Source: Eledone cirrhosa (Eukaryota). From it: DNA of 64,000 nucleotides. The DNA is taken from positions 314,898,001 through 314,962,000 of the forward strand of contig OZ024740.1 of the NCBI GenBank assembly GCA_964016885.1, written 5' to 3'. Made by a program: the position numbers and the translations under genes. This document shows, one piece after another, positions 14,852-45,079 of the stretch (positions are counted from its first letter, which is position 1; every line of letters begins with the position of its first letter). The notes under the pieces were generated by a model. It worked only from the letters and a program-made list of their open reading frames with translations. It made no database searches and had not been told where the DNA came from.

Positions 14852-14890
<39 letters not shown>

Positions 14891-14893
<3 letters not shown>

Positions 14894-15078
14894 GGAAAAG
14901 AGTCAGGACCCTAATGGCTGAGCTCCGGCCGTTTCGACAGCTAGATCTAGCTGTCAAAATGGCCGGAACTCAGCCGTTGGGGTCCTGACTCTTTTCCTAT
15001 CACCCACTCTACTACCCTAAGTATCGAGTACTCTGGTGCGTTATGGTCCACCTGGTTTCTTACCACACTTTCTTTGTT
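14891..15078 (+). mobile_element. Fold-back Penelope-like element with partial hammerhead motif, copy 1
   Basis: 110-bp near-perfect palindrome 14891-15000 centred on CTAGATCTAG, plus an unpaired tail, flanked by (TA)n; homologous to 17235-17430. Confidence 0.6.
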
Positions 15079-15668
15079 ATATATATATATATACTTAATT
15101 TTATTCAGAAGCTGTTTTAACCATTGATGGCATTACAACTCTCAGTTCATCAGGTAACAATATTATTAGACTCAACATGTTTTACACAATAAATTGAATA
15201 ATGTTTGAAAATAAAAATAAAAAATTAAATTATTCCTTATGCTTTGTTACCAATTCTTTGTTTTTGTTCTAAACCTTCTTCTTGAGTCATCCCTCTTTTG
15301 AAATTGAAGCATTTGTTTTACTTTTTCTAATGGCTAGAATATATGTGGTTCGCCACACCTGTATAAACATCCATGCCACCGATGTCCAAGGGAAAAGCAA
15401 TGATTAATGCAGCTTGGCACCAGTGACGTCGCAACTCATTTCTACAGCTGAGTAAACTGGAACAACATGAAATAAAATGCCTTGCTCAAGGACACAACGC
15501 ATCACCTGCTTTGGGAATCAAAATCATAACCTCATGATTGCAAGCCCAATTCTCTAAACACTAAGCCATGTGCCTTCATAAACCTAAATATGTTTATTAT
15601 ATCTTGATTGCTAACAATACAGTTTGTTGACCAGTTACTGAATAGATGATTTAGTGGTCAACCATTAA

Positions 15669-16320
15669 CCCTTTAGCATTTACATTACTCTATATATTTA
15701 TACTATTATATTTTCACGGTAAAGGCTTTACCTCACATAATATTGAGTCTGAGATTTTGATATATATTTATATATGAAGGCGCATGGCTTAGTGGTTAGA
15801 GCATTGGGCTTGCAATCGAAAGGTTTGGAGTTCAATTCTCAGACCGGGTGATGTGTTGTTTCCTTGAGCAAGACACTTTATTTCACATTGCTCCCGTTTA
15901 CTCAGCTGTAGAAATGAGATGATAGGACTGGGGTCCCTATTATTCCACTGCAAAGTGGTCGTGGAGGTGCCATGGCAAAAAAGCACCCAGCACACACTGT
16001 AAAGTAGACATGTAGGCGCCACAGAAAAAAGCACCCAGTACTCACTGTAAATGGGGTTGGTGTTAGGAAGGGCATCCAGCTGTAGAAATCAAGCCAGAAT
16101 CAGTTCCCGAATGAGCAAGACAAAGTCAGCTGACCGGACACTGCCCACAACAGGACAACCCGTCTAACTCATGCTAGTGTGGAAGAACGGACGTAAGGCG
16201 GTGATGATGATGATGATGATATTTTGAGAACAATACCTTAACATCAGTATAAGAGGCCAGTTTGAACAGAAAGATGTGAGAGAAATCTTGCTCAATACGG
16301 CTGGTTTAAATGCTAAAGTG
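15669..16320. mobile_element. piggyBac-type MITE with nested SINE B (15776-16219)
   Basis: TTAA-CCCTTTAGCATT...AATGCTAAAGTG-TTAA. The MITE interior is split by a full SINE B (A/B boxes, (GAT)n tail). Confidence 0.75.
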
Positions 16321-16705
16321 TTAACTAAACCTCTCACTATTGAATGAAATGGACTTCCCGTAGTTTTGATGGTGAGTGTTCCAGTTGTTTGATCAATGGA
16401 ACAGCCTGCTCATAAAATTAGTGCATATTTGACTGATTATTCCACAGACACGTGTACCCTTAACAACGTTCACAGGGAGATTCAGCATGACGCAGAATAA
16501 GACCAGGCTGGTCCATTGATTTGCAGCTGCAACTCAATTTTGTCTGCTGAATGGACTGGAGCAACATGAAATAAAGTGTCTTGCTCAAGGATACAACATG
16601 CTATCAGGAATGGAACTCATGACTTTATGATTGTCAACTGAACACCCTAACCATTAAGCCATATGTCTTCATTATAGCTAACATGGCATTTCTATTACTA
16701 ACTGC

Positions 16706-17110
16706 TAGTGCTGGACTTACCTATAAGCTAAATAAACTATAGCTTAGGTCCACACACTGTCAGGGGCCTCATTTTAAAAAATATAAATAATAGATTGGAA
16801 ATGCATGAAACAGATTGGCTATTTTAATGACTTCATGTACGTGTATTTCAGAGACATAAGCCAGTTGAGGAAGAACACATCAATTGTTTGTTTATGTTTT
16901 GAACCATATCAGCTTCACATTTGAAAAGAGGGTAATAGCCCTGAAATATCATGTTGAAATATACTGGGTAAAACATTACTTTGTTTTGTTTTATTTGTTA
17001 TCCTTTGGCCTTTATATATTTCTACTGCATTGTGCCGGCTTCTGAAAAAATAATAATAATATTTTTTTAGAGAAGGTCCTTAAATTTCATATAGCTAAGA
17101 GCCTCATTAT
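16706..17110. mobile_element. Probable hAT-type MITE
   Basis: Starts TAGTGCTGGACTTACCTATAAGCT; the motif ATAGCTTAGG/ATAGCTAAGAGCCTC recurs near both ends; right TIR degraded. Confidence 0.35.
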
Positions 17111-17234
17111 ATTTCAATTACTAGTAATATATGTGCCCCTCTCTCTCTATATATATATTTGGGAGTATTACTTCAGTATGTGTTTGTAAACTACCGCATG
17201 TTTCTTCTTGGTCTTTCTCCCTATATATATATAT

Positions 17235-17430
17235 ATAGGAACGAGTAGGACCCGACGGCTGAGCTCAAGCCGTTTCGACGGCTAATTTTTAGTCCAGAAT
17301 TAGCCGTCGAAACGGCTTGAGCTCAGCCGTCAGGGTCCTACTCGTTCCTATTACCCACTCTACTACCCTAAGTATTGAGTACTTTGGTGCGTTATGGTCC
17401 ATCTGGTTCCTTACCACATTTCCTTCGTTA
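17235..17430 (+). mobile_element. Fold-back Penelope-like element with partial hammerhead motif, copy 2
   Basis: Palindrome 17235-17351 plus tail; the right arm contains GAAAC-GGCT-TGAGCTC-AGCC-GTC; flanked by (TA)n. Confidence 0.65.
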
Positions 17431-17439
17431 TATATATAT

Positions 17440-17880
17440 TTGTAAAGAGATTGTGTAGGTGTCATGACAAAAAGCACCCAGTCCACACTGTAAAGTGGTT
17501 GTGTTGGTGACATGACAAAAAGTACCCAGTCCACACTGTAAAGTGGTTGTGTTGGTGACATGACAAAAAGTACCCAGTCCACACTGTAAAGTGGTTGTGT
17601 AGGTGTCATGACAAAAAGCACCCAGTCCACACTGTAAAGTGGTTGTGTTGGTGACATGACAAAAAGTACCCAGTCCACACTGTAAAGTGGTTGTGTTGGT
17701 GTCATGACAAAAAGTACCCAGTCCACACTGTAAAGTGGTTGTGTTGGTGTCATGACAAAAAGCACCCAGTCCACACTGTAAAGTGGTTGTGTTGGTGTCA
17801 TGACAAAAAGCACCCAGTCCACACTGTAAAGTGGTTGTGTTGGTGACATGACAAAAAGCCCCCAGCACACACACTGTAAA
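17440..17880 (+). repeat. 48-bp minisatellite (about 9 units) amplified inside a SINE
   Basis: Unit GTCATGACAAAAAGCACCCAGTCCACACTGTAAAGTGGTTGTGTTGGT, running into GGCGTTAGGAAAAGCATCCGGCTGTAGAAA and a (GAT)n tail of SINE-B type. Confidence 0.85.
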
Positions 17881-19199: not shown

Positions 19200-22100
19200 A
19201 TACAATATATGCACCACACACATATCACATTTAAGCACTATGTATGCACCATTCATACAATGTATGCACCACATACATATCATATTTAAGCACTATCTAT
19301 GCACCATTCATACAATATATGCACCACATACATATCATATTTAAGCACTATCTATGCACCATTCATACAATGTATGCACCACATACATATCATATTTAAG
19401 CACTATCTATACACCACATACATATCACATTTAAGCACTATCTTTGCACCACATATATATCACATTTAAACACTATCTATACACCACATACATATCATAT
19501 TTAGGCACTATCTATACACCACATACATATCACATTTAAGCACTATCTTTGCACCACATACATATCACATTTAGGCACTATCTATACACCACATACATAT
19601 CACATTTAAACACTATCTATACACCACATACATATCACATTTAAGCACTATCTTTGCACCACATACATATCACATTTAAGCACTATCTATACACCACATA
19701 CATATCACATTTAAACACTATCTATGCACCACATACATATCACATTTAAACACTATCTATACACCACATACATATCACATTTAAGCACTATCTATACACC
19801 ACATACATATCACATTTAGGCACTATCTATACACCACATACATATCACATTTAAGCACTATCTATACACCACATATATATCACATTTAAGCACTATCTAT
19901 ACACCACATACATATCACATTTAGGCACTATCTATACACCACATACATATCACATTTAAGCACTATCTATACACCACACATATCACATTTAAGCACTATC
20001 TATACACTACATACATATCACATTTAGGCACTATCTATGCACCACATACATATCACATTTAAGCACTATCTATACACCACATACATATCACATTTAAGCA
20101 CTATCTATACACCACATATCACATTTAAGCACTATCTATACACCACATACATATCACATTTAGGCACTATCTATACACCACATACATATCACATTTAAGC
20201 ACTATCTATACACCACATACATATCACATTTAAGCACTATCTATACACCACATACATATCACATTTAGGCACTATCTATACACCACATACATATCACATT
20301 TAAGCACTATCTATACACCACATACATATCACATTTAAGCACTATCTATACACCACATACATATCACATTTAGGCACTATCTATACACCACATACATATC
20401 ACATTTAAGCACTATCTATACACCACATACATATCACATTTAGGCACTATCTATACACCACATACATATCACATTTAAGCACTATCTATACACCACATAC
20501 ATATCACATTTAGGCACTATCTATACATCACATATCACACTTAAGCACTATCTATACACCACATACATATCACATTTAGGCACTATCTATACACCACATA
20601 CATATCACATTTAAGCACTATCTATACACCACATACATATCACATTTAGGCACTATCTATACACCACATACATATCACATTTAAGCACTATCTATACACC
20701 ACATACATATCACATTTAAACACTATCTATACACCACATACATATCACATTTAAGCACTATCTATACACCACATACATATCACATTTAGGCACTATCTAT
20801 ACACCACATACATATCACATTTAAGCACTATCTATACACCACATACATATCACATTTAGGCACTATCTATACACCACATACATATCACATTTAAGCACTA
20901 TCTATACACCACATACATATCACATTTAGGCACTATCTATACACCACATATCACACTTAAGCACTATCTATACACCACATACATATCACATTTAGGCACT
21001 ATCTATACACCACATACATATCACATTTAAACACTATCTATACACCACATACATATCACATTTAAGCACTATCTATGCACCACATACATATCACATTTAA
21101 GCACTATCTATACACCACATACATATCACATTTAGGCACTATCTATACACCACATACATATCACATTTAAACACTATCTATACACCACATACATATCACA
21201 TTTAAGCACTATCTATACACCACATACATATCACATTTAGGCACTATCTATACACCACATACATATCACACTTAAGCACTATCTATACACCACATACATA
21301 TCACATTTAGGCACTATCTATACACCACATACATATCACATTTAAACACTATCTATACACCACATACATATCACATTTAAACACTATCTATACACCACAT
21401 ACATATCACATTTAAGCACTATCTTTGCACCACATACATATCACATTTAGGCACTATCTATACACCACATACATATCACATTTAAACACTATACACCACA
21501 TAAATATCACATTTAAGCACTATCTATACACCACATACATATCACATTTAAGCACTATCTATACACCACATACATATCACATTTAAACACTATCTATACA
21601 CCACATACATATCATATTTAGGCACTATCTATACACCACATACATATCACATTTAAGCACTATCTATACACCACATACATATCACATTTAAACACTATCT
21701 ATACACCACATACATATCACATTTAAACACTATCTATACACCACATAAATATCACATTTAGGCACTATCTATACACTACATACATATCACATTTAAACAC
21801 TATCTATACACCACATACATATCACATTTAAGCACTATCTATACACCACATACATATCACATTTAAATACTATCTATACACCACATACATATCACATTTA
21901 GGCACTATCTATACACCACATACATATCACATTTAAGCACTATCTATACACCACATACATATCACATTTAAACACTATCTATACACCACATACATATCAC
22001 ATTTAGGCACTATCTATACACCGCATACATATCACATTTAAACACTATCTATACACCACATACATATCACATTTAGGCACTATCTATACACCACATACAT

Positions 22101-25100
22101 ATCACATTTAAGCACTATCTATACACCACATACATATCACATTTAAGCACTATCTATACACCACATACATATCACATTTAGGCACTATCTATACACCACA
22201 TACATATCACATTTAGGCACTATCTATACACCACATACATATCACATTTAAGCACTATCTATACACCACATACATATCACATTTAGGCACTATCTATACA
22301 CCACATACATATCACATTTAAATACTATCTATACACCACATACATATCACATTTAAGCACTATCTATACACCACATACATATCACATTTAGGCACTATCT
22401 ATACACCACATACATATCACATTTAAACACTATCTATACACCAGATACATATCACATTTAGGCACTATCTATACACCACATACATATCACATTTAGGCAC
22501 TATCTATACACCACATACATATAACATTTAGGCACTATCTATACACCACACATATCACATTTAAGCACTATCTATACACCACATACATATCACATTTAAG
22601 CACTATCTATACACCACATATATATCACATTTAAGCACTATCTATACACCACATATATATCACATTTAAACACTATCTATACACCACATACATATCACAT
22701 TTAAGCACTATCTATACACCACACATATCACATTTAAGCACTATCTATACACCACATACATATCACATTTAAGCACTATCTATACACCACATACATATCA
22801 CATTTAAACACTATCTATACACCACATACATATCACATTTAAGCACTATCTATACACCACACATATCACATTTAAGCACTATCTATACACCACATACATA
22901 TCACATTTAAACACTATCTATACACCACATACATATCACATTTAAACACTATCTATACACCACATACATATCACATTTAAGCACTATCTTTGCACCACAT
23001 ACATATCACATTTAGGCACTATCTATACACCACATACATATCACATTTAGGCACTATCTATACACCAGATACATATCACATTTAGGCACTATCTATACAC
23101 CACATACATATCATATTTAAACACTATCTATACACCACATACATATCACATTTAAACACTATCTATACACCATACATATCACATTTAAGCACTATCTATA
23201 CACCAGATACATATCACATTTAGGCACTATCTATACACCACATACATATCACATTTAAACACTATCTTTGCACCACATACATATCACATTTAGGCACTAT
23301 CTATACACCACACATATCACATTTAAGCACTATCTATACACCACATACATATCACATTTAGGCACTATCTATACACCACATACATATCACATTTAAACAC
23401 TATCTATACACCACATACATATCACATTTAGGCACTATCTATACACCACATACATATCACATTTAAGCACTATCTATACACCACATACATATCACATTTA
23501 GGCACTATCTATACACCACATACATATCACATTTAAGCACTATCTATACACCACATACATATCACATTTAGGCACTATCTATACACCACATACATATCAC
23601 ATTTAAATACTATCTATACACCACATACATATCACATTTAAGCACTATCTATACACCACATACATATCACATTTAGGCACTATCTATACACCACATACAT
23701 ATCACATTTAAATACTATCTATACACCACATACATATCACATTTAAGCACTATCTATACACCACATACATATCACATTTAGGCACTATCTATACACCACA
23801 TACATATCACATTTAAACACTATCTATACACCACATACATATCACATTTAGGCACTATCTATACACCACATACATATCACATTTAAGCACTATCTATACA
23901 CCACATACATATCACATTTAGGCACTATCTATACACCACATACATATCACATTTAAATACTATCTATACACCACATATATATCACATTTAAACACTATCT
24001 ATACACCACATACATATCACATTTAAGCACTATCTATACACCACATACATATCACATTTAAGCACTATCTATACACCACATACATATCACATTTAGGCAC
24101 TATCTATACACCACATACATATCACATTTAAATACTATCTATACACCACATACATATCACATTTAAGCACTATCTATACACCACATACATATCACATTTA
24201 GGCACTATCTATACACCACATACATATCACATTTAAGCACTATCTATACACCACATACATATCACATTTAAGCACTATCTATACACCACATACATATCAC
24301 ATTTAGGCACTATCTATACACCACATACATATCACATTTAGGCACTATCTATACACCACACATATCACATTTAAGCACTATCTATACACCACATACATAT
24401 CACATTTAAGCACTATCTATACACCACATATATATCACATTTAAGCACTATCTATACACCACATATATATCACATTTAAACACTATCTATACACCACATA
24501 CATATCACATTTAAGCACTATCTATACACCACACATATCACATTTAAGCACTATCTATACACCACATACATATCACATTTAAGCACTATCTATACACCAC
24601 ATACATATCACATTTAAACACTATCTATACACCACATACATATCACATTTAAGCACTATCTATACACCACACATATCACATTTAAGCACTATCTATACAC
24701 CACATACATATCACATTTAAACACTATCTATACACCACATACATATCACATTTAAGCACTATCTATACACCACATACATATCATATTTAAACACTATCTA
24801 TACACCACATACATATCACATTTAAACACTATCTATACACCATACATATCACATTTAAGCACTATCTATACACCAGATACATATCACATTTAGGCACTAT
24901 CTATACACCACATACATATCACATTTAAACACTATCTTTGCACCACATACATATCACATTTAGGCACTATCTATACACCACACATATCACATTTAAGCAC
25001 TATCTATACACCACATACATATCACATTTAGGCACTATCTATACACCACATACATATCACATTTAAACACTATCTATACACCACATACATATCACATTTA

Positions 25101-26120
25101 GGCACTATCTATACACCACATACATATCACATTTAAGCACTATCTATACACCACATACATATCACATTTAGGCACTATCTATACACCACATACATATCAC
25201 ATTTAAGCACTATCTATACACCACATACATATTACATTTAGGCACTATCTATACACCACATACATATCACATTTAAATACTATCTATACACCACATACAT
25301 ATCACATTTAAGCACTATCTATACACCACATACATATCACATTTAGGCACTATCTATACACCACATACATATCACATTTAAATACTATCTATACACCACA
25401 TACATATCACATTTAAGCACTATCTATACACCACATACATATCACATTTAGGCACTATCTATACACCACATACATATCACATTTAAACACTATCTATACA
25501 CCACATACATATCACATTTAGGCACTATCTATACACCACATACATATCACATTTAAGCACTATCTATACACCACATACATATCACATTTAGGCACTATCT
25601 ATACACCACATACATATCACATTTAAATACTATCTATACACCACATATATATCACATTTAAACACTATCTATACACCACATACATATCACATTTAAGCAC
25701 TATCTATACACCACATACATATCACATTTAAGCACTATCTATACACCACATATATATCACATTTAAACACTATCTATACACCACATACATATCACATTTA
25801 AGCACTATCTATACACCACACATATCACATTTAAGCACTATCTATACACCACATACATATCACATTTAAGCACTATCTATACACCACATACATATCACAT
25901 TTAAACACTATCTATACACCACATACATATCACATTTAAGCACTATCTATACACCACACATATCACATTTAAGCACTATCTATACACCACATACATATCA
26001 CATTTAAACACTATCTATACACCACATACATATCACATTTAAGCACTATCTATACACCACATACATATCACATTTAAGCACTATCTATACACCACACATA
26101 TCACATTTAAGCACTATCTA
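19200..26120. repeat. 35-bp tandem satellite, about 6.9 kb (about 200 units)
   Basis: Unit TTAAGCACTATCTATACACCACATACATATCACAT with AAG/AGG/AAA variants and occasional 4-bp deletions. Confidence 0.97.
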
Positions 26121-34892: not shown

Positions 34893-35072
34893 TATATTAG
34901 TCTTCTGCTATATATAGTCAGTCATACAGTGTTTTAAAAAGAAAACATAGTATCCTATTAAAATATTTGTCTTTATTCCCTTTGTGGCGGAAAAATATTA
35001 ATTACTATTATCAAGATCGGCTGCAACAGCCAACATCCACAACTATGTAAATATACCCCCCCCCCCCCCCCC

Positions 35073-35092
35073 ACACACACACATACACACAC

Positions 35093-35170
<78 letters not shown>

Positions 35171-35264
35171 ACACACACACATTCTTTCTCTCACATACAC
35201 CCACTCTCACACGCACACACACACACACACACACACGCATACGCATACACGCACACGCACACGC

Positions 35265-35295
<31 letters not shown>

Positions 35296-35395
35296 TTCTC
35301 TCTCTCACACACACACACTCTCACACGCACACACACACACACATTTACATACACACATACACACACACATACACACACACACACACTCACTTACA
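35073..35395. repeat. (CA)n-rich microsatellite block
   Basis: Direct inspection. Confidence 0.9.
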
Positions 35396-35661
35396 CTCAC
35401 ACATACATGCACATACATATACACGTACACATATACACACGCATACACATATAATCACACAAACTCACACACATATACACCTACACACGTACAGACACAT
35501 GCATACACACACATAAACACATCCTCACACATGAACTTGTCATAATTATATTGATATACAAGCATACACACACGCATGCATACACACAATATGCATACAC
35601 ACATGCATACACCATGCATACACACACATGCATACACGCATATGCAAACACACACACATAG

Positions 35662-35703
<42 letters not shown>

Positions 35704-36504
35704 GACGTCCTCTTAATTATATTCATATAAAACATTCAAAAGTATACATAGACATAAAACCTCACACACACTTTAATATATAAGCTACACTGATGCACAC
35801 ATACGTACATACACGCACATACACACACAGATGCACACATACACATATATGAAGTATATATAAAATTAATTCCTCGCACATAAACTTATATAAAAGATAC
35901 ACGTACACACACATAGATATTTAGACATATCAGATATACATTCACTCACACACATAGACATACTGTACTCTCGTATATACACATACACACACACAGACAT
36001 TTAAATAAGTCAGATATACATTCTCACACACACATATATATACACGCATGCACACACACATATACACACACATATTTAGAGAAGTCTGACATGCAATCTC
36101 TCACACACACATATAGGTACTCTCACACACACATACACATACATATTTAGAGAAGTCTGAAATGCATACTCACACACACACACATATACACACATATTTA
36201 GAGAAGTCTCACATATTCTCTCTCACACACACAGACATACATAGTCACATACACACACAGACATACATAGTCACACACACACACATATGCACACATATTT
36301 AGAGAAGTCTGACATACATTCTCTTTCTCACACACACACATATACACACACATATTTAGAGAAGTCTGACATGCATTCTCACACACACACATATAGGTAC
36401 TGTCACACACACATATACACATACATATTTAGAGAAGTCTGATATGCATACTCACACACACACACATATACACACATACTTAGAGAAGTCTGACATATTC
36501 TCTC

Positions 36505-39016
36505 TCACACACACAGACATACATAGTCACACACACATACATACATAGTCACACACACACACAGACATACATAGTCACACACACACACAGACATACATAG
36601 TCACACACACACAGACATACATAGTCACACACACAGACATACATAGTCACACACACACACATACATAGTCACACACACACACAGACATACATAGTCACAC
36701 ACACACACAGACATACATAGTCACACACACACACAAACATACATAGTCACACACACACACAGACATACATAGTCACACACACACACAGACATACATAGTC
36801 ACACACACAGACATACATAGTCACACACACACATACATACATAGTCACATACACACACAGACATACATAGTCTCACACACACAGACAGACATAGTCACAC
36901 ACACACACATACATAGTCACATACACACACACAGACATACATAGTCACACACACACACAGACATACATAGTCACACACACACACACAGACATACATAGTC
37001 ACACACACACAGACATACATAGTCACACACACACACAGACATACATAGTCACACACACATACATAGTCACACAAACAGACATACATAGTCACACACACAC
37101 ACATACATAGTCACACACACACACACAGACATACATAGTCACACACACACACATACATAGTCACACACACACACACACACACACAGACATACATAGTCAC
37201 ACACACACACATACATAGTCACACACACAGACATACATAGTCACACACACAGACATACATAGTCACACACACACACACGGACATACATAGTCACACACAC
37301 ACACACACAGACATACATAGTCACACACACACACAGCCATACATAGTCACACACACAGACATACATAGTCACACACACACACACAGACATACATAGTCAC
37401 ACACACACACACACACAGACATACATAGTCACACACACACACACATACAGCCATACATAGTCACACACAGAGACATACATAGTCACACACACACACACAC
37501 ACACAGACATACATAGTCACACACACACACACACAGACATACATAGTCACACACACACACAGCCATACATAGTCACACACACAGACATACATAGTCACAC
37601 ACACACACACAGACATACATAGTCACACACTCACACACAGACATACATAGTCACACACACACACATAGACATACATAGTCACACACACACACACACAGAC
37701 ATGCATAGTCACACACACAGACATACATAGTCACACACATACACACAGACATACATAGTCACACACACAGACATACATAGTCACACACACACACAGACAT
37801 ACATAGTCACACACACACACACAGACATACATAGTCACACACACACACACAGACATACATAGTCACACACACACACACAGACATACATAGTCACACACAC
37901 ACACACAGACATACATAGTCACACACACACACACAGACATACATAGTCACACACACACACACACAGACATACATAGTCACACACACACACAGAGACATAC
38001 ATAGTCACACACACACACACACAGACATACATAGTCACACACACACACACACAGACATACATAGTCACACACACACACAGACATACATAGTCACACACAC
38101 ACACAGACATACATAGTCACACACACACACAGACATACATAGTCACATTCACACACACAGACATACATAGTCACACACACACACACACAGACATACATAG
38201 TCACACACACACACACACAGACATACATAGTCACACACACACACACACACACAGACATACATAGTCACACACACACACAGACATACATAGTCACACACAC
38301 ACACAGACATACATAGTCACACACACACACACAGACATAGTCACACACACACACAGACATAGTCACACACACAGACATACATAGTCACACACACACACAC
38401 ACAGACACACATAGTCACACACACAGACATACATAGTGACACACACACACACACATACACACACACAGACATACATAGTCACACACACACACACAGACAT
38501 ACATAGTCACACACACACACACACACACAGATACATAGTCACACACACAGACATACATAGTGACACACACACACACACAGACATACATAGTCACACACAC
38601 ACACATACAGACATACATAGTCACACACACACACATACATAGTCACACACACACACAGACATACATAGTCACACACACATACATACATAGTCACACACAC
38701 AGACATACATAGTCACACACACACACATACATAGTCACACACACACAGACATACATAGTCACACACACAGACATACATAGTCACACACACACACACACAC
38801 AGACATACATAGTCACATACACAGACATACATAGTCACACACACACACACAGACATACATAGTCACACACACACAGACAGACATACATAGTCACACACAC
38901 ACACACACATACATAGTCACACACACACACACACAGACATACATAGTCACATACACAGACATACATACATAGTCACACACACAGACATACATAGTCACAC
39001 ACACAGACATACACAG

Positions 39017-39049
<33 letters not shown>

Positions 39050-39254
39050 GACATACATACATAGTCACACACACACACACACACACACAGACATACATAG
39101 TCACACACACACACACAGACATACATAGTCACACACACACACACAGACATACATTGTCACACACACACACACAGACATACATAGTCACACACACACACAG
39201 ACATACATAGTCACACACACAGACATACATAGTCACACACACAGACATACACAG

Positions 39255-39287
<33 letters not shown>

Positions 39288-39968
39288 GACATACATACAT
39301 AGTCACACACACACACACACACACAGACATACATAGTCACACACACACACACAGACATACATAGTCACACACACACACACAGACATACATTGTCACACAC
39401 ACACACAGACATACATAGTCACACACACACACAGACATACATAGTCACACACACACACACAGACATACATAGTCACACACACAGACATACATAGTGACAC
39501 ACACACACACACAGACATACATAGTCACACACACACACACAGACATACATAGTCACACACACACACACAGACATACATAGTCACACACACACACACAGAC
39601 ATACATAGTCACACACACACACACAGAGATACATAGTCACACACACAGACATACATAGTGACACACACACACACACAGACATACATAGTCACACACACAC
39701 ACACAGACATACATAGTCACACACACACACACAGACATACATAGTCACACACAGACACACAGACATACATAGTCACACACACACACACAGACATACATAG
39801 TCACACACACAGACATACATAGTCACACACACACACAGACATACATAGTCACACACACACACACAGACATACATAGTCACACACACAGACATACATAGTC
39901 ACACACACACACAGACATACATAGTCACACACACAGACATACATAGTCACACACACAGACATACACAG

Positions 39969-40009
<41 letters not shown>

Positions 40010-40726
40010 GACATACATACATAGTCACACACACACACACACACACAGACATACATAGTCACACACACACACACAGACATACATAGTCACACACACACAC
40101 ACAGACATACATTGTCACACACACACACAGACATACATAGTCACACACACACACAGACATACATAGTCACACACACACACACAGACATACATAGTCACAC
40201 ACACAGACATACATAGTGACACACACACACACACAGACATACATAGTCACACACACACACACAGACATACATAGTCACACACACACACACAGACATACAT
40301 AGTCACACACACACACACAGACATACATAGTCACACACACACACACAGAGATACATAGTCACACACACAGACATACATAGTGACACACACACACACACAG
40401 ACATACATAGTCACACACACACACACAGACATACATAGTCACACACACACACACAGACATACATAGTCACACACAGACACACAGACATACATAGTCACAC
40501 ACACACACACAGACATACATAGTCACACACACAGACATACATAGTCACACACACACACAGACATACATAGTCACACACACACACACAGACATACATAGTC
40601 ACACACACAGACATACATAGTCACACACACACACAGACATACATAGTCACACACACACACAGACATACATAGTCACACACACACACACACAGACATACAT
40701 AGTCACACACACAGACATACACAGTG

Positions 40727-40759
<33 letters not shown>

Positions 40760-42086
40760 TACATAGTCACACACACACAGACATACATAGTCACACACAC
40801 ACACACAGACATACATAGTCACACACACACACACAGACATACATAGTCACACACACACACACAGACATACATAGTCACACACACACACACAGACATACAT
40901 AGTCACACACACACACACACAGACATACATAGTCACACACACACACACACAGACATACATAGTCACACACACACAGACATACATAGTCACACACACACAC
41001 AGCCATACATAGTCACACACACACACACAGACATGCATAGTCACACACACACAGACATACATAGTCACACACACACACACACAGACATACATAGTCACAC
41101 ACACACACACACAGACATACATAGTCACACACACACACACAGACATACATAGTCACACACACACACACAGACATAGTCACACACAGACATAGTCACACAC
41201 ACAGACATACATAGTCACACACACACACACACACACACAGACACACATAGTCACACACACAGACATACATAGTGACACACACACACACACAGACATACAT
41301 AGTCACACACACACACACAGACATACATAGTCACACATACACACAGACATACATAGTCACACACACACACACAGACATACATAGTCACACACACACAGAG
41401 ATACATAGTCACACACACAGACATACATAGTGACACACACACACACACAGACATACATAGTCACACACACACACATACAGACATACATAGTCACACACAC
41501 ACACATACATAGTCACACACACACACAGACATACATAGTCACACACACATACATACATAGTCACACACACACACAGACATACATAGTCACACACACACAC
41601 ATACATAGTCACACACACACATACATACAAAGTCACACACACAGACATACATAGTCACACACACACACACACACATACATAGTCACACACACACACAGAC
41701 ATACATAGTCACACACACATACATACATAGTCACACACACACACATACATACATAGTCACACACACACACATACATAGTCACACACACACATACATACAA
41801 AGTCACACACACAGACATACATAGTCACACACACACACACACACAGACATACATAGTCACATACACAGACATACATAGTCACACACACAGACATACATAG
41901 TCACACACACACACACAGACAGACATACATAGTCACACACACACACAGACATACATAGTCACACACACACACACACAGACATACATAGTCACATACACAG
42001 ACATACATACATAGTCACACACACACACACAGACATACATAGTCACACACACAGACATACATAGTCACACACACAGACATACACAG

Positions 42087-42119
<33 letters not shown>

Positions 42120-42602
42120 GACATACATACATAGTCACACACACACACACACACACACACAGACATACATAGTCACACACACACACACACAGACATACAT
42201 AGTCACACACACACACACAGACATACATTGTCACACACACACAGACATACATAGTCACACACACAGACATACATAGTCACACACACACACAGACATACAT
42301 AGTCACACACACACATACAGACATACATAGTCACACACACAGACATACATAGTGACACACACACACACACAGACATACATAGTCACACACACACACAGAC
42401 ATACATAGTCACACACACACACACAGACATACATAGTCACACACACACACACACAGATACATAGTCACACACACAGGCATACATAGTGACACACACACAC
42501 ACACAGACATACATAGTCACACACACACACACAGACATACATAGTCACACACACACACACACAGACATACATAGTCACACACAGACACACAGACATACAT
42601 AG

Positions 42603-42641
<39 letters not shown>

Positions 42642-43645
42642 TACATAGTCACACACACACACACAGACATATTTAGTCACACACACACACACAGACATAC
42701 ATGGTCACACACACACACAGACATACATAGTCACACACACACACACAGACATACATAGTCACACACACACACACAGACATACATAGTCACACACACACAC
42801 AGACATACATAGTCACACACACACAGACATACATAGTCACACACACAGACATACATAGTCACACACACACACAGACATACATAGTCACACACACACACAG
42901 ACATACATAGTCACACACACACACACAGACATACATAGTCACACACACAGACATACATAGTGGCACACACGCACACACACACAGACATACATAGTCACAC
43001 ACACACACACAGACATACACAGTCACACACACACACAGACATACATAGTCACACACACACACACAGACATACATAGTCACACACACACACACAGACATAC
43101 ATAGTCACACACACACACACAGACATACATAGTCACACACACACACACACACACAGACATACATAGTCACACACACACACACACAGACATACATAGTCAC
43201 ACACACACACAGACATACATAGTCACACACACACACACACAGACATACATAGTCACACACACACGCACACAGCCATACATAGTCACACACACACACACAC
43301 AGACATACATAGTCACACACACACAGACATACATAGTCACACACACACACACACAGACATACCTAGTCACACACACACACACAGACATACATAGTCACAC
43401 ACACACACACAGACATACATAGTCACACACACACACAGACATACATAGTCACACACACACACACACAGACATACATAGTCACATACCCAGACATACATAC
43501 ATAGTCACACACACACACACAGACATAGTCACACACACACACATACATAGTCACACACACAGACATACATAGTCACACACACACACACACAGACACACAT
43601 TGTCACACATACACACACACACACAGACACACATAGTCACACACA
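36505..43645. repeat. Compound satellite GACATACATAGT-(CA)n, about 7.1 kb
   Basis: A near-constant 12-bp core alternates with CA runs of variable length over hundreds of units. Confidence 0.97.
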
Positions 43646-43801
43646 TCAATCTATTATTAACTTCTGAAGATATTTGTACTTGGAGTTAAATTGCCTCGAG
43701 AGAGATTCAATATTTTAGGGCATCCGCCCATATTAGAAACACACACACACAGATACCCACACATACACAACACACCCACACACATACATACACACACACA
43801 C

Positions 43802-43832
<31 letters not shown>

Positions 43833-43834
43833 CG

Positions 43835-43866
<32 letters not shown>

Positions 43867-45079
43867 CACTCACAAACATATATATACAGACACATACATA
43901 CTCTTACAGGGACACATACAGATACACACACACACACATACACACACACACATAGACACACATAGGCACACACACACAGAGAAACACACCTACACACACA
44001 GGAACGCACACACACATGCATACATACACAAACAGACAGACAGACAGACACACACACATATGCACACACACGCATACACATACAAATACACATATACACA
44101 AACACATACACACAAACTCAAAATCACATACGCACACAGACATTAATACACACACAAACACACACAAACACACACACACATAGATTTCTAAATATAATGG
44201 ACACTAGTTATTAGTAACAGAGTTCACATTTGAAAATATCTCAGATTCTCAGAATCTTCAGATTCTCATATTCTGGTAAGTTGTCAGACTCCCTAATTGA
44301 ATCGTTACTGTCATTGGGCATGACACAGACTGAGGTGAGTAAAGTCATGCATGGTTTGTATTTGATTACTATGTCAGGTTACTTTCCGAATATCTTGTCG
44401 GCATGAATCTCTATACTCTAGAGAATCGTCATTTCATGGTTTATCCCATACTATTTCTATGTTACTTATTATTTAAGGTGGAGATCTTGTGTAGTACTAA
44501 CAAATTTATCAGTGTAAATAACCTACTCTCGGGTCTCGAATATTCCCCCCCACCGCCGAAATTACCCCCTTTCCCTCACTCTTAGCCTCACCCCTGTTCT
44601 TACCCCCCCTCCCCGCTTATTAAATGTTGCTAGTCTATCTCCGGCGAAATTTTATTTTAAGTGTTAACATTCCTGCGACAATTAATTTTCTTTATACCTT
44701 AAAAACGACATTATACATGACAAAAAACAAGTACATTACTAGAAATCCCACTCATTATAAAATAAATAGAATGGGTTGGGGGTCTCAATATGTAAACTAA
44801 ACGACTAATTCTGGTTTTTATAAAAATCAACGGAGATAACCTATAAAAATTACCGATTTTCCACGCCCACGCCTTTTTGAAGACAGTAAAAGACATGATT
44901 TGAGAGAAATTTGGTTGGTAGTTCTAGCAAATGTTGTGATTACATCTAGGCTCGTCTATGGACTTGTTTAGAAACTTGTTTTTATTGATGTTGTTTAACC
45001 CTCTACTAGCGCTGATTCAAAGCCTATGATTGAAGGTGTACAAGCCGTGAATATTTATTTTTCTTCTTTTCAAATGAAG

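What the first reader, a model, noticed from the sequence alone, without database searches (positions are those of the whole stretch)
14891..17430. Hairpin element family whose palindrome centre is hammerhead stem II
Seen: two diverged copies (14891-15078, 17235-17430), each a palindrome of about 110 bp plus a shared single-copy tail of about 78 bp, both in (TA)n. The right arm of copy 2 has the 3' half of a hammerhead: TAGCCGTC, GAAAC, stem III GGCT/AGCC, GUC triplet, then AGGGTCC. The CUGANGA half is missing and replaced by an inverted copy. Both fold-backs are centred on GACRGCTA/TAGCYGTC, where stem II would lie, with different loops. Known: Penelope-like elements carry type I hammerheads in pseudo-LTRs and often leave inverted 5'-truncated ends. 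Inference: the ribozyme's stem II hairpin self-primes second-strand synthesis and reproducibly generates palindromic mini-elements.
Basis: partly seen in the sequence, partly recalled or inferred. Interest (0 to 1): 0.75.

Follow-up and report, generated by a model that had tools for sequence, protein, structure and literature searches.

The report
Penelope stubs stop at RNA start
These two DNA hairpins are short, mirror-image stubs of a very abundant Penelope-type jumping gene; both arms stop at the same spot inside its ribozyme, likely the capped start of the element's RNA, so each hairpin was likely made by two separate copying events and not by the ribozyme folding back on itself.

Summary
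In detail: two palindromes with a one-sided 80-bp tail in (TA)n, carrying the 3' half of a type I hammerhead. They are pseudo-LTR stubs of two subfamilies of a Hydra-clade Penelope-like element (27,065 exact tail matches; intact 717-aa ORFs in tandem arrays). Inverted stub plus tail is a published PLE layout, and this scan noted that class before on other DNA.

The stem II fold-back junction has 0 matches genome-wide, either arm can be the longer, and the parent core is UUGANAA or CUGANAA, not CUGANGA.

What seems new: both arms pile up at one base in loop II, the A of a TTAGT initiator-like motif kept in both subfamilies. A non-native G often precedes it (6,390 against 1,068 for A), on either arm and sometimes on both.

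Best reading (0.6): transcription starts inside the ribozyme. Both cut target strands prime near the capped 5' end, 61 and 141 nt in, run off and are joined. No RNA data were available, so the start site is inferred.

The parts
14891..14947 (-). Copy 1 (subfamily 2): inverted, tail-less arm; runs from start site A (+63 in this subfamily) back to +6
   Evidence: position 0 = A of the TTAGT motif in loop II
14944..14947 (.). Copy 1 junction: 4-nt self-complementary overlap (GATC) shared by both arms
   Evidence: sequence against subfamily-2 parents
14944..15000 (+). Copy 1 direct arm: stem II 3' strand, decayed GAAA, stem III, decayed GUC, helix I 3' strand
15001..15080 (+). Copy 1 one-sided tail between sites A and B, ending in (TA)n
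17235..17287 (-). Copy 2 (subfamily 1): inverted, tail-less arm from site A (+61) back to +7
17288..17292 (+). Copy 2: start of the direct arm at -3; 17291 is position 0, the inferred transcription start in loop II
   Evidence: start site inferred
17301..17337 (+). Copy 2: 3' half of the type I hammerhead (stem II 3' strand, GAAA 17309-17312, stem III, GUC 17329-17331, predicted cut after 17331)
17352..17431 (+). Copy 2 tail between site A (17351) and site B (17431); in full-length elements it runs on into the 5' UTR
14857..14890 (.). (TA)n target on the left of copy 1; (TA)n also flanks the other three ends

Best explanation
Each hairpin is two head-to-head pieces of the pseudo-LTR of a Hydra-clade Penelope-like element, likely made in one insertion when both cut strands of a (TA)n target primed reverse transcription near the likely capped 5' end of the element's RNA, ran off that end and were joined. 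SHOWN: parentage; fixed outer ends at sites A (+61) and B (+141); a shared inner wall at position 0 in hammerhead loop II; a non-native G before position 0 on either arm; no stem II junctions. INFERRED: position 0 is a Pol II start site; the G is the copied cap; both primers use one sense RNA, the B primer displacing the A cDNA; the join is made by host end-joining or by an RT jump onto the other cDNA's 3' end. It would follow that the mRNA carries only half a ribozyme at its 5' end, and that long copies need read-through RNA from tandem arrays.
For: Parent: the same pLTR sits at both ends of an RT/GIY-YIG ORF (L052); intact 717-aa ORFs in 3.5-kb tandem arrays. Wall: in the first 92 tail matches in genome order, 51 of 64 measurable tailed arms and 50 of 54 inverted arms end at -5..+8, and 10 tailed arms are long (hand-corrected). 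G: 6,390 matches with G against 1,068 with A before position 0; native is T or C in 50 of 50 long copies. Control at +3: G 14, A 40 of 100 rows (hand count). In 30 G contexts none has the native loop upstream, 15 are tail-less and 15 tailed arms, in 15 the partner arm does not supply the G, and 3 insertions have it on both arms. A fold-back cannot copy its own last base. Symmetry: tailed arm longer 17, inverted longer 18, equal 7 of 42 (15/17/10 by hand), plus 9 copies whose inverted arm reaches about 0 while the tailed arm starts at +18 or later. TTAGT keeps its place in both subfamilies though loop II differs, and subfamily 2 stops there too. One RNA: 25 of about 75 long insertions are long on both sides, against about 8% expected from independent templates. 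Precedent: start site and Inr inside the pLTR (PMC2377424); both strands extended and two internal RT starts bounding the tail (PMC11167929); 5' G as a cap mark in L1 (PMC9341517).
Against: No RNA evidence for the start site or the cap. The G count is partly confounded by junction sequence: in 15 of 30 subfamily-1 contexts and at least 6 of 11 subfamily-2 contexts the partner arm could supply the G. In subfamily 2 the commonest non-native base is C (54 of 100; G 38, A 8), often the partner arm's own C (8 of 16 viewed). Many arms end at -1 to -5 or carry T runs, so the wall is not one base sharp. The +3 control has its own junction bias. Measuring needed an intact +10..+24 seed, so 28 tailed and 38 inverted arms of the 92 were not scored. 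Later centre deletion of a palindrome could blur arm lengths. Arm-to-arm subfamily concordance was judged by eye only.
Confidence: 0.6

Rival explanations
1. Two cDNAs as above, but position 0 is an internal stop (a protein- or structure-defined template boundary, as in telomerase) or an uncapped processed end, and the G is plain non-templated C addition.
For: PLE RTs are telomerase relatives (PMC8557442). The wall lies at a fixed distance from stem II in both subfamilies. T runs at the junction suggest slippage.
Against: Long arms read through position 0 and come in pairs, which points to a different RNA and not to a leaky block. The motif at 0 fits the Inr consensus (recalled) and is kept while the loop diverges. 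L150 shows a 257-bp unit that restarts at about -3.
Confidence: 0.17
2. One cDNA primed at site B runs off at position 0, turns back on itself, copies itself to site A and is captured by the other target end; later centre deletions make the arms uneven.
For: The arms share subfamily variants (by eye). Long arms pair with long arms. Self-priming was proposed for PLE inversions (PMC3846280).
Against: G on the tail-less arm in 15 of 30 contexts and on both arms in 3 insertions; palindromes with a one-base centre (8 of 30), too tight for a priming loop; full tail-less arms joined to partners that end inside the tail (L182, L185).
Confidence: 0.12
3. One reading: the stem II hairpin self-primes second-strand synthesis.
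For: Stem II is real, with 3 two-sided changes between subfamilies, and the centres lie next to its 3' strand.
Against: 0 genome-wide matches to the required junction; the inverted arms carry inverted loop II sequence; most arms never reach the 5' strand of stem II.
Confidence: 0.02
4. TTAG is a 3' splice site and the stubs are copies of a spliced RNA, or the template is an antisense transcript that self-primes.
For: D. virilis Penelope has a 5' UTR intron in the pLTR (PMC2377424). A pyrimidine run and a CTAAT lie upstream of the AG in several copies. Antisense self-priming was hypothesised in PMC3846280.
Against: The arms keep the AG, and no shared exon sequence lies upstream in 30 of 30 G contexts. 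An antisense template gives no reason for a G at this place on both arms.
Confidence: 0.05
5. A MITE-like DNA transposon that moves as a palindromic unit.
For: Fixed outer ends, TA context, tens of thousands of copies.
Against: Junctions vary among copies and the same junction recurs in different subfamilies; the tail is one-sided; the sequence is continuous with a retroelement ORF.
Confidence: 0.02

Closest known systems
Hydra clade of C-terminal EN+ PLEs, e.g. Hydra-1_Obim, Penelope-13_HM (PMC8557442; section 11, passages and supplement parts read)
   Same: RW[K/R], DKT and CxCX5C motifs, single ORF of about 700 aa, (TA)n targets, hammerhead in the pLTR, inverted 5'-truncated copy.
   Different: A distinct family: unit about 3.5 kb with a 3' UTR of about 1.1 kb; core UUGANAA or CUGANAA with a loop II of 35-40 nt, where the listed Hydra ribozymes have CUGANGA and short loops; tail 80 bp against 30-40 bp.
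PLE inverted pLTR plus one-sided tail (PMC3846280 passages; PMC8557442 Fig. 2 legend)
   Same: The same layout.
   Different: Those authors proposed self-priming on an antisense template and left the question open. Here the junctions point to two cDNAs from a sense RNA that stop at one site.
Poseidon_Ac in vitro TPRT (PMC11167929; parts 1-2 of 4 read)
   Same: Both strands cut and extended, two internal RT starts that bound the tail, AT-rich targets, ribozyme dispensable.
   Different: No account of inverted copies or of run-off at a capped end in the parts read; there the ORF starts at stem II, here at +231.
U3-A8 hammerhead variant of Cercyon PLEs (PMC4209133; parts 1-2 of 4 read)
   Same: U3-A8 core, long helix II, palindromic loop III.
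   Different: 36 of the first 100 long copies here have a C3-A8 mismatch (hand count), likely impaired, yet that subfamily is abundant and young.
L1 twin priming and LTR strong-stop DNA (recalled; the twin-priming paper was seen only as a reference-list entry)
   Same: Second-strand nick primes on the RNA; a short cDNA runs off the capped 5' end.
   Different: In L1 the inverted piece does not overlap the direct piece, and strong-stop DNA is tRNA-primed and transferred. Here both arms copy the same stretch and are integrated.

Membership tests
EN+ Penelope-like element | Single ORF with RT and C-terminal GIY-YIG endonuclease | tested here: met
   717-aa ORFs with YRDD and a VIY..YIG stretch; atlas neighbours at 0.96-0.99 carry HTH_animal, GIY-YIG or RVT_1. 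Pfam and PDB gave no hit.
EN+ Penelope-like element | Pseudo-LTRs from partial tandems | tested here: met
   L052 has a 261-bp direct repeat at both ends; tandem units of about 3.54 kb.
EN+ Penelope-like element | Inverted 5'-truncated copy and one-sided tail | tested here: met
   13 of 13 inverted partners of tail-less arms carry the tail.
Hydra clade | RWK motif, DKT, CxCX5C linker | tested here: met
   RWR, SDKT and CNC-x5-C; definition; motif-by-motif likeness to Hydra-1_Obim by eye.
Hydra clade | No CCHH motif in the endonuclease | tested here: inconclusive
   CxxC and CxH are seen around the conserved E and N, as described for Hydra; no alignment to CCHH-bearing elements was made.
Hydra clade | Placement in the RT phylogeny | not tested
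   Reference proteins were not held as files; no tree was built.
Hydra clade | Canonical CUGANGA hammerhead | tested here: not met
   0 of the first 100 of 3,433 matches have G8; subfamily 2 has UUGAUAA in most of 25 loci. A variant core, not an absent ribozyme.
Type I hammerhead ribozyme | Three helices round the conserved core | tested here: met
   2 of 4 parents fold to the hammerhead topology as MFE, z-scores not significant; 93.8% of cells paired and 3 two-sided changes in stem II across subfamilies; no two-sided change within subfamily 1.
Type I hammerhead ribozyme | Self-cleavage at GUC | not testable with these tools
   3-4 of 92 tailed arms start at +41/+42: too few to tell.
MITE | Uniform unit with terminal inverted repeats at both ends, moved as DNA | tested here: not met
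   Variable junctions, one-sided tail, continuity with an RT ORF.
Non-LTR retrozyme | Tandem non-coding units, each with a complete hammerhead | tested here: not met
   The stubs are head-to-head and hold half a ribozyme; definition from bioRxiv 10.64898/2026.07.22.740005, part 1.

The most novel reading that the evidence does not exclude
This PLE starts its capped RNA inside loop II of its own hammerhead, so only the downstream copy can cleave. Its RT dimer primes twice on that one RNA just behind the cap and closes the insertion by jumping, through the cap-derived C, onto the other cDNA. The tens of thousands of hairpins are then integrated 'strong-stop' products and a genome-wide record of how PLE inverted repeats form.
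Probability: 0.4. Interest if true: 0.7.

Novelty: new variant of a known kind. Interest (0 to 1): 0.5.

Why it matters
How Penelope-like elements make their inverted ends is unsettled: one paper proposed antisense self-priming (PMC3846280), another named it as a task for in vitro work (PMC8557442), and the one in vitro study read here did not treat it in the parts seen (PMC11167929). If the wall and the G are a capped start site, genome sequence alone fixes the template strand, the number of priming events and the RNA's 5' end. The family also offers intact ORFs and a defined short template for a direct test. It would explain why stubs far outnumber long copies, and it supplies tens of thousands of 55-60 bp perfect hairpins that could form dsRNA when transcribed (not tested).

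Tried and rejected
Rfam scan: no hammerhead model hit. Pfam and PDB: nothing for the ORF. A first automated local-alignment map of arm ends was too noisy (TA repeats, gaps) and served only for hand reading. I first took L211 for a compact-ribozyme parent of subfamily 2; two searches showed it is a deletion copy (24 other loci carry the long loop). Sequencing runs: no RNA holder listed. Contigs of 4 runs of unknown kind gave loose ends into (TA)n at sites A and B and a roughly 20-fold depth fall across position 0 in run X1; contig depth is no copy number and loop II divergence inflates the fall, so I do not lean on it. Ends at the ribozyme cut site: 3-4 of 92, inconclusive. Search of this scan by sequence: nothing; by cap and initiator words: nothing. 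Paper searches for the cap or run-off reading showed no PLE paper that states it, judged from listings and the passages read; subscription papers are not covered, so absence from print is not shown. PMC5625713 and PMC13282606 (passages) did not describe this family. A strict recount of arm ends and a numeric arm-to-arm concordance test were not done.

Full report
Coordinates. Position 0 is the A of the TTAGT (or TCAGT) motif in hammerhead loop II, 10 nt before the 3' strand of stem II (window 17291 in copy 2). Site A is the end of the tail-less arm (+61), site B the end of the tail (+141).

Observation. Both palindromes, their shared tail and the (TA)n flanks are as reported. The arms are about 91% complementary and the copies 79% alike. 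The window lies at G000:C1:314898001-314962000 in a 3.0-Gb animal genome. The host was not determined; a cephalopod is my guess from recalled repeats and from the likeness to Hydra-1_Obim.

Family size and parent. A 32-nt tail pattern has 27,065 exact matches and its reversed control 0. The best 40 of 590 candidates for copy 2 are 99-100% alike. Following three loci with longer right arms led to elements with an RT/GIY-YIG ORF. L052 has the pLTR at both ends, and its 5' copy runs through the tail into the 5' UTR. That junction has 352 exact matches, some in tandem arrays of about 3.54 kb, where 4 ORFs of 717 aa or slightly more from the ATG at +231 are intact. The protein has RWR, DKT and CxCX5C, the Hydra-clade marks in PMC8557442, and follows Hydra-1_Obim motif by motif by eye, though its ribozyme differs. 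Pfam and PDB gave nothing; atlas neighbours are PLE-like.

The ribozyme. Long copies carry the 5' half. The pattern allowed G or A at position 8, and all of the first 100 of 3,433 matches have A: 64 UUGANAA and 36 CUGANAA by hand count. U3-A8 is a published PLE variant (PMC4209133). C3-A8 is a mismatch and likely impairs cleavage (inference); cleavage was dispensable in vitro for Poseidon_Ac. Two of 4 parents fold into the hammerhead topology, without significant z-scores. Within subfamily 1 no pair changes on both sides. Across subfamilies 3 stem II pairs do, which reflects one split between two groups and not many events. Copy 1 belongs to subfamily 2, whose loop II is a different sequence.

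Test of the stem II model. Fold-back at stem II must join the inverted arm to the native loop II through the stem. An exact degenerate pattern for that junction in subfamily 1 has 0 matches. In real copies the inverted arm continues into an inverted copy of the 3' part of the loop.

Where the arms stop. I took the first 92 tail matches in genome order. could score 64 tailed and 54 inverted arms; the rest lack an intact seed or an inverted arm. After correcting by hand about a dozen calls where the walk's mismatch tolerance misfired (against; part was cut from view), 51 of 64 and 50 of 54 end at -5..+8. Ten tailed arms are long and only three ends fall between -6 and -60. Among 42 insertions scored on both sides the tailed arm is longer in 17, the inverted arm in 18, and 7 are equal (15, 17, 10 by hand). 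In 9 more the inverted arm reaches about 0 while the tailed arm starts at +18 to +67. A strict recount was not done, so these figures are approximate.

The extra G. The base before position 0 is T or C in 50 of 50 long copies. Genome-wide, G stands there 6,390 times and A 1,068 times. At +3 the first 100 of 3,091 matches give G 14 and A 40, the remainder being joins at +4. In 30 G contexts none is a long copy, 15 are tail-less and 15 tailed arms, and L180/181, L186/187 and L193 have the G on both arms. In 15 of the 30 the partner arm or a templated insert could supply the G; in the other 15 it cannot. Subfamily 2 stops at the same motif, with G 38, A 8 and C 54 in the first 100 of 1,674 matches. 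There the C is often the partner arm's own base in a palindrome with a one-base centre (8 of 16 viewed), and at least 6 of 11 G cases coincide with a partner G. So subfamily 2 supports the wall well and the G only weakly. An untemplated 5' G is read as a copied cap in L1 work (PMC9341517, passages). TTAGT fits the Inr consensus (recalled), and D. virilis Penelope and a Chlamys element start inside the pLTR.

One RNA or two. Of 100 long-arm matches, 50 form 25 head-to-head pairs, about a third of insertions, against about 8% if templates were drawn independently at a long fraction near 16%. The arms share subfamily variants by eye. All 13 inverted partners of tail-less arms carry the tail; tail on both sides occurs in a minority.

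Mechanism. The endonuclease cuts both strands of (TA)n, and both ends are extended from two internal RNA sites; this was shown in vitro for another PLE and is inferred here. Sites A and B both end in TAT, so pairing with the target may help (inference). On an RNA that begins at 0 both cDNAs run off after 61 and 141 nt, often adding C, and are joined bluntly, through 1-6 nt overlaps or with short templated inserts. Copy 1 has a 4-nt overlap at +6..+9; copy 2 joins +7 to -3 in a T run. On read-through RNA from tandem arrays the same reaction gives long inverted arms and full elements. L149, L150 and L153 show stubs of this form that continue past B into the 5' UTR.

What is known. The layout is published, and this scan noted it before, including a two-primer reading; I had written my reading before seeing those notes. 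I found no statement of the start-site wall or the G in the searches. Supplements were read only for PMC8557442; those of PMC11167929 (Figs S1, S2) could bear on RT start sites and were not seen.

Verdict. A real feature and an ordinary class of insertion. The proposed stem II mechanism is not supported. The junction record gives a specific, testable account of how PLE inverted ends form. Interest 0.5.

Noticed in passing
L023, L073, L117 and others (junction at position 0): Runs of 4-15 T directly before position 0, longer than the native three; possibly slippage on a U run at the RNA's 5' end.
   Followed up: no
L064, L113, L118, L119 (+17 to +40): Recurrent internal deletions between the two copies of an 8-nt direct repeat that flank stem III.
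   Followed up: no
L150:1255-1770 (G000:C1:27.009 Mb): A 257-bp head-to-tail unit from about -3 to about +255, as if the RT jumped from one RNA's 5' end to another RNA.
   Followed up: partly
L263, L264 (G000:C1:91.476-91.488 Mb; 437.200-437.211 Mb): Four-unit tandem arrays of near-identical elements; the units fetched whole have intact ORFs. Candidate active sources.
   Followed up: partly
window 17398-17431 and full-length 5' UTR (+107 to +148): A 13-codon upstream ORF starts in the tail and stops just after site B.
   Followed up: no
window 17424-17431 against Hydra-2_Amil: The eight bases at site B recur downstream of the ribozyme in a coral Hydra element, which suggests a conserved RT start signal; seen by eye.
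   Followed up: no
L046/L047 (G000:C3:142.38 Mb): A different PLE with a CxxC linker and GIY-YIG domain lies between two arms of this family.
   Followed up: no
window 15432-15591 and 15762-15921: Inverted pair of a tRNA-derived SINE-like repeat (82% complementary; tRNA hit at 15785-15842).
   Followed up: no
window 17441-17870: A 48-bp tandem array of about 9 copies inside another repeat, starting just after copy 2.
   Followed up: no
window 20000-26000 and 35000-44000: Long tracts of extreme GC skew (-0.6 to -0.8), probably simple or tandem repeats.
   Followed up: no
L005:196-545 and L012 upstream of the right arm: Unrelated palindromic inserts directly upstream of this family's arms.
   Followed up: no
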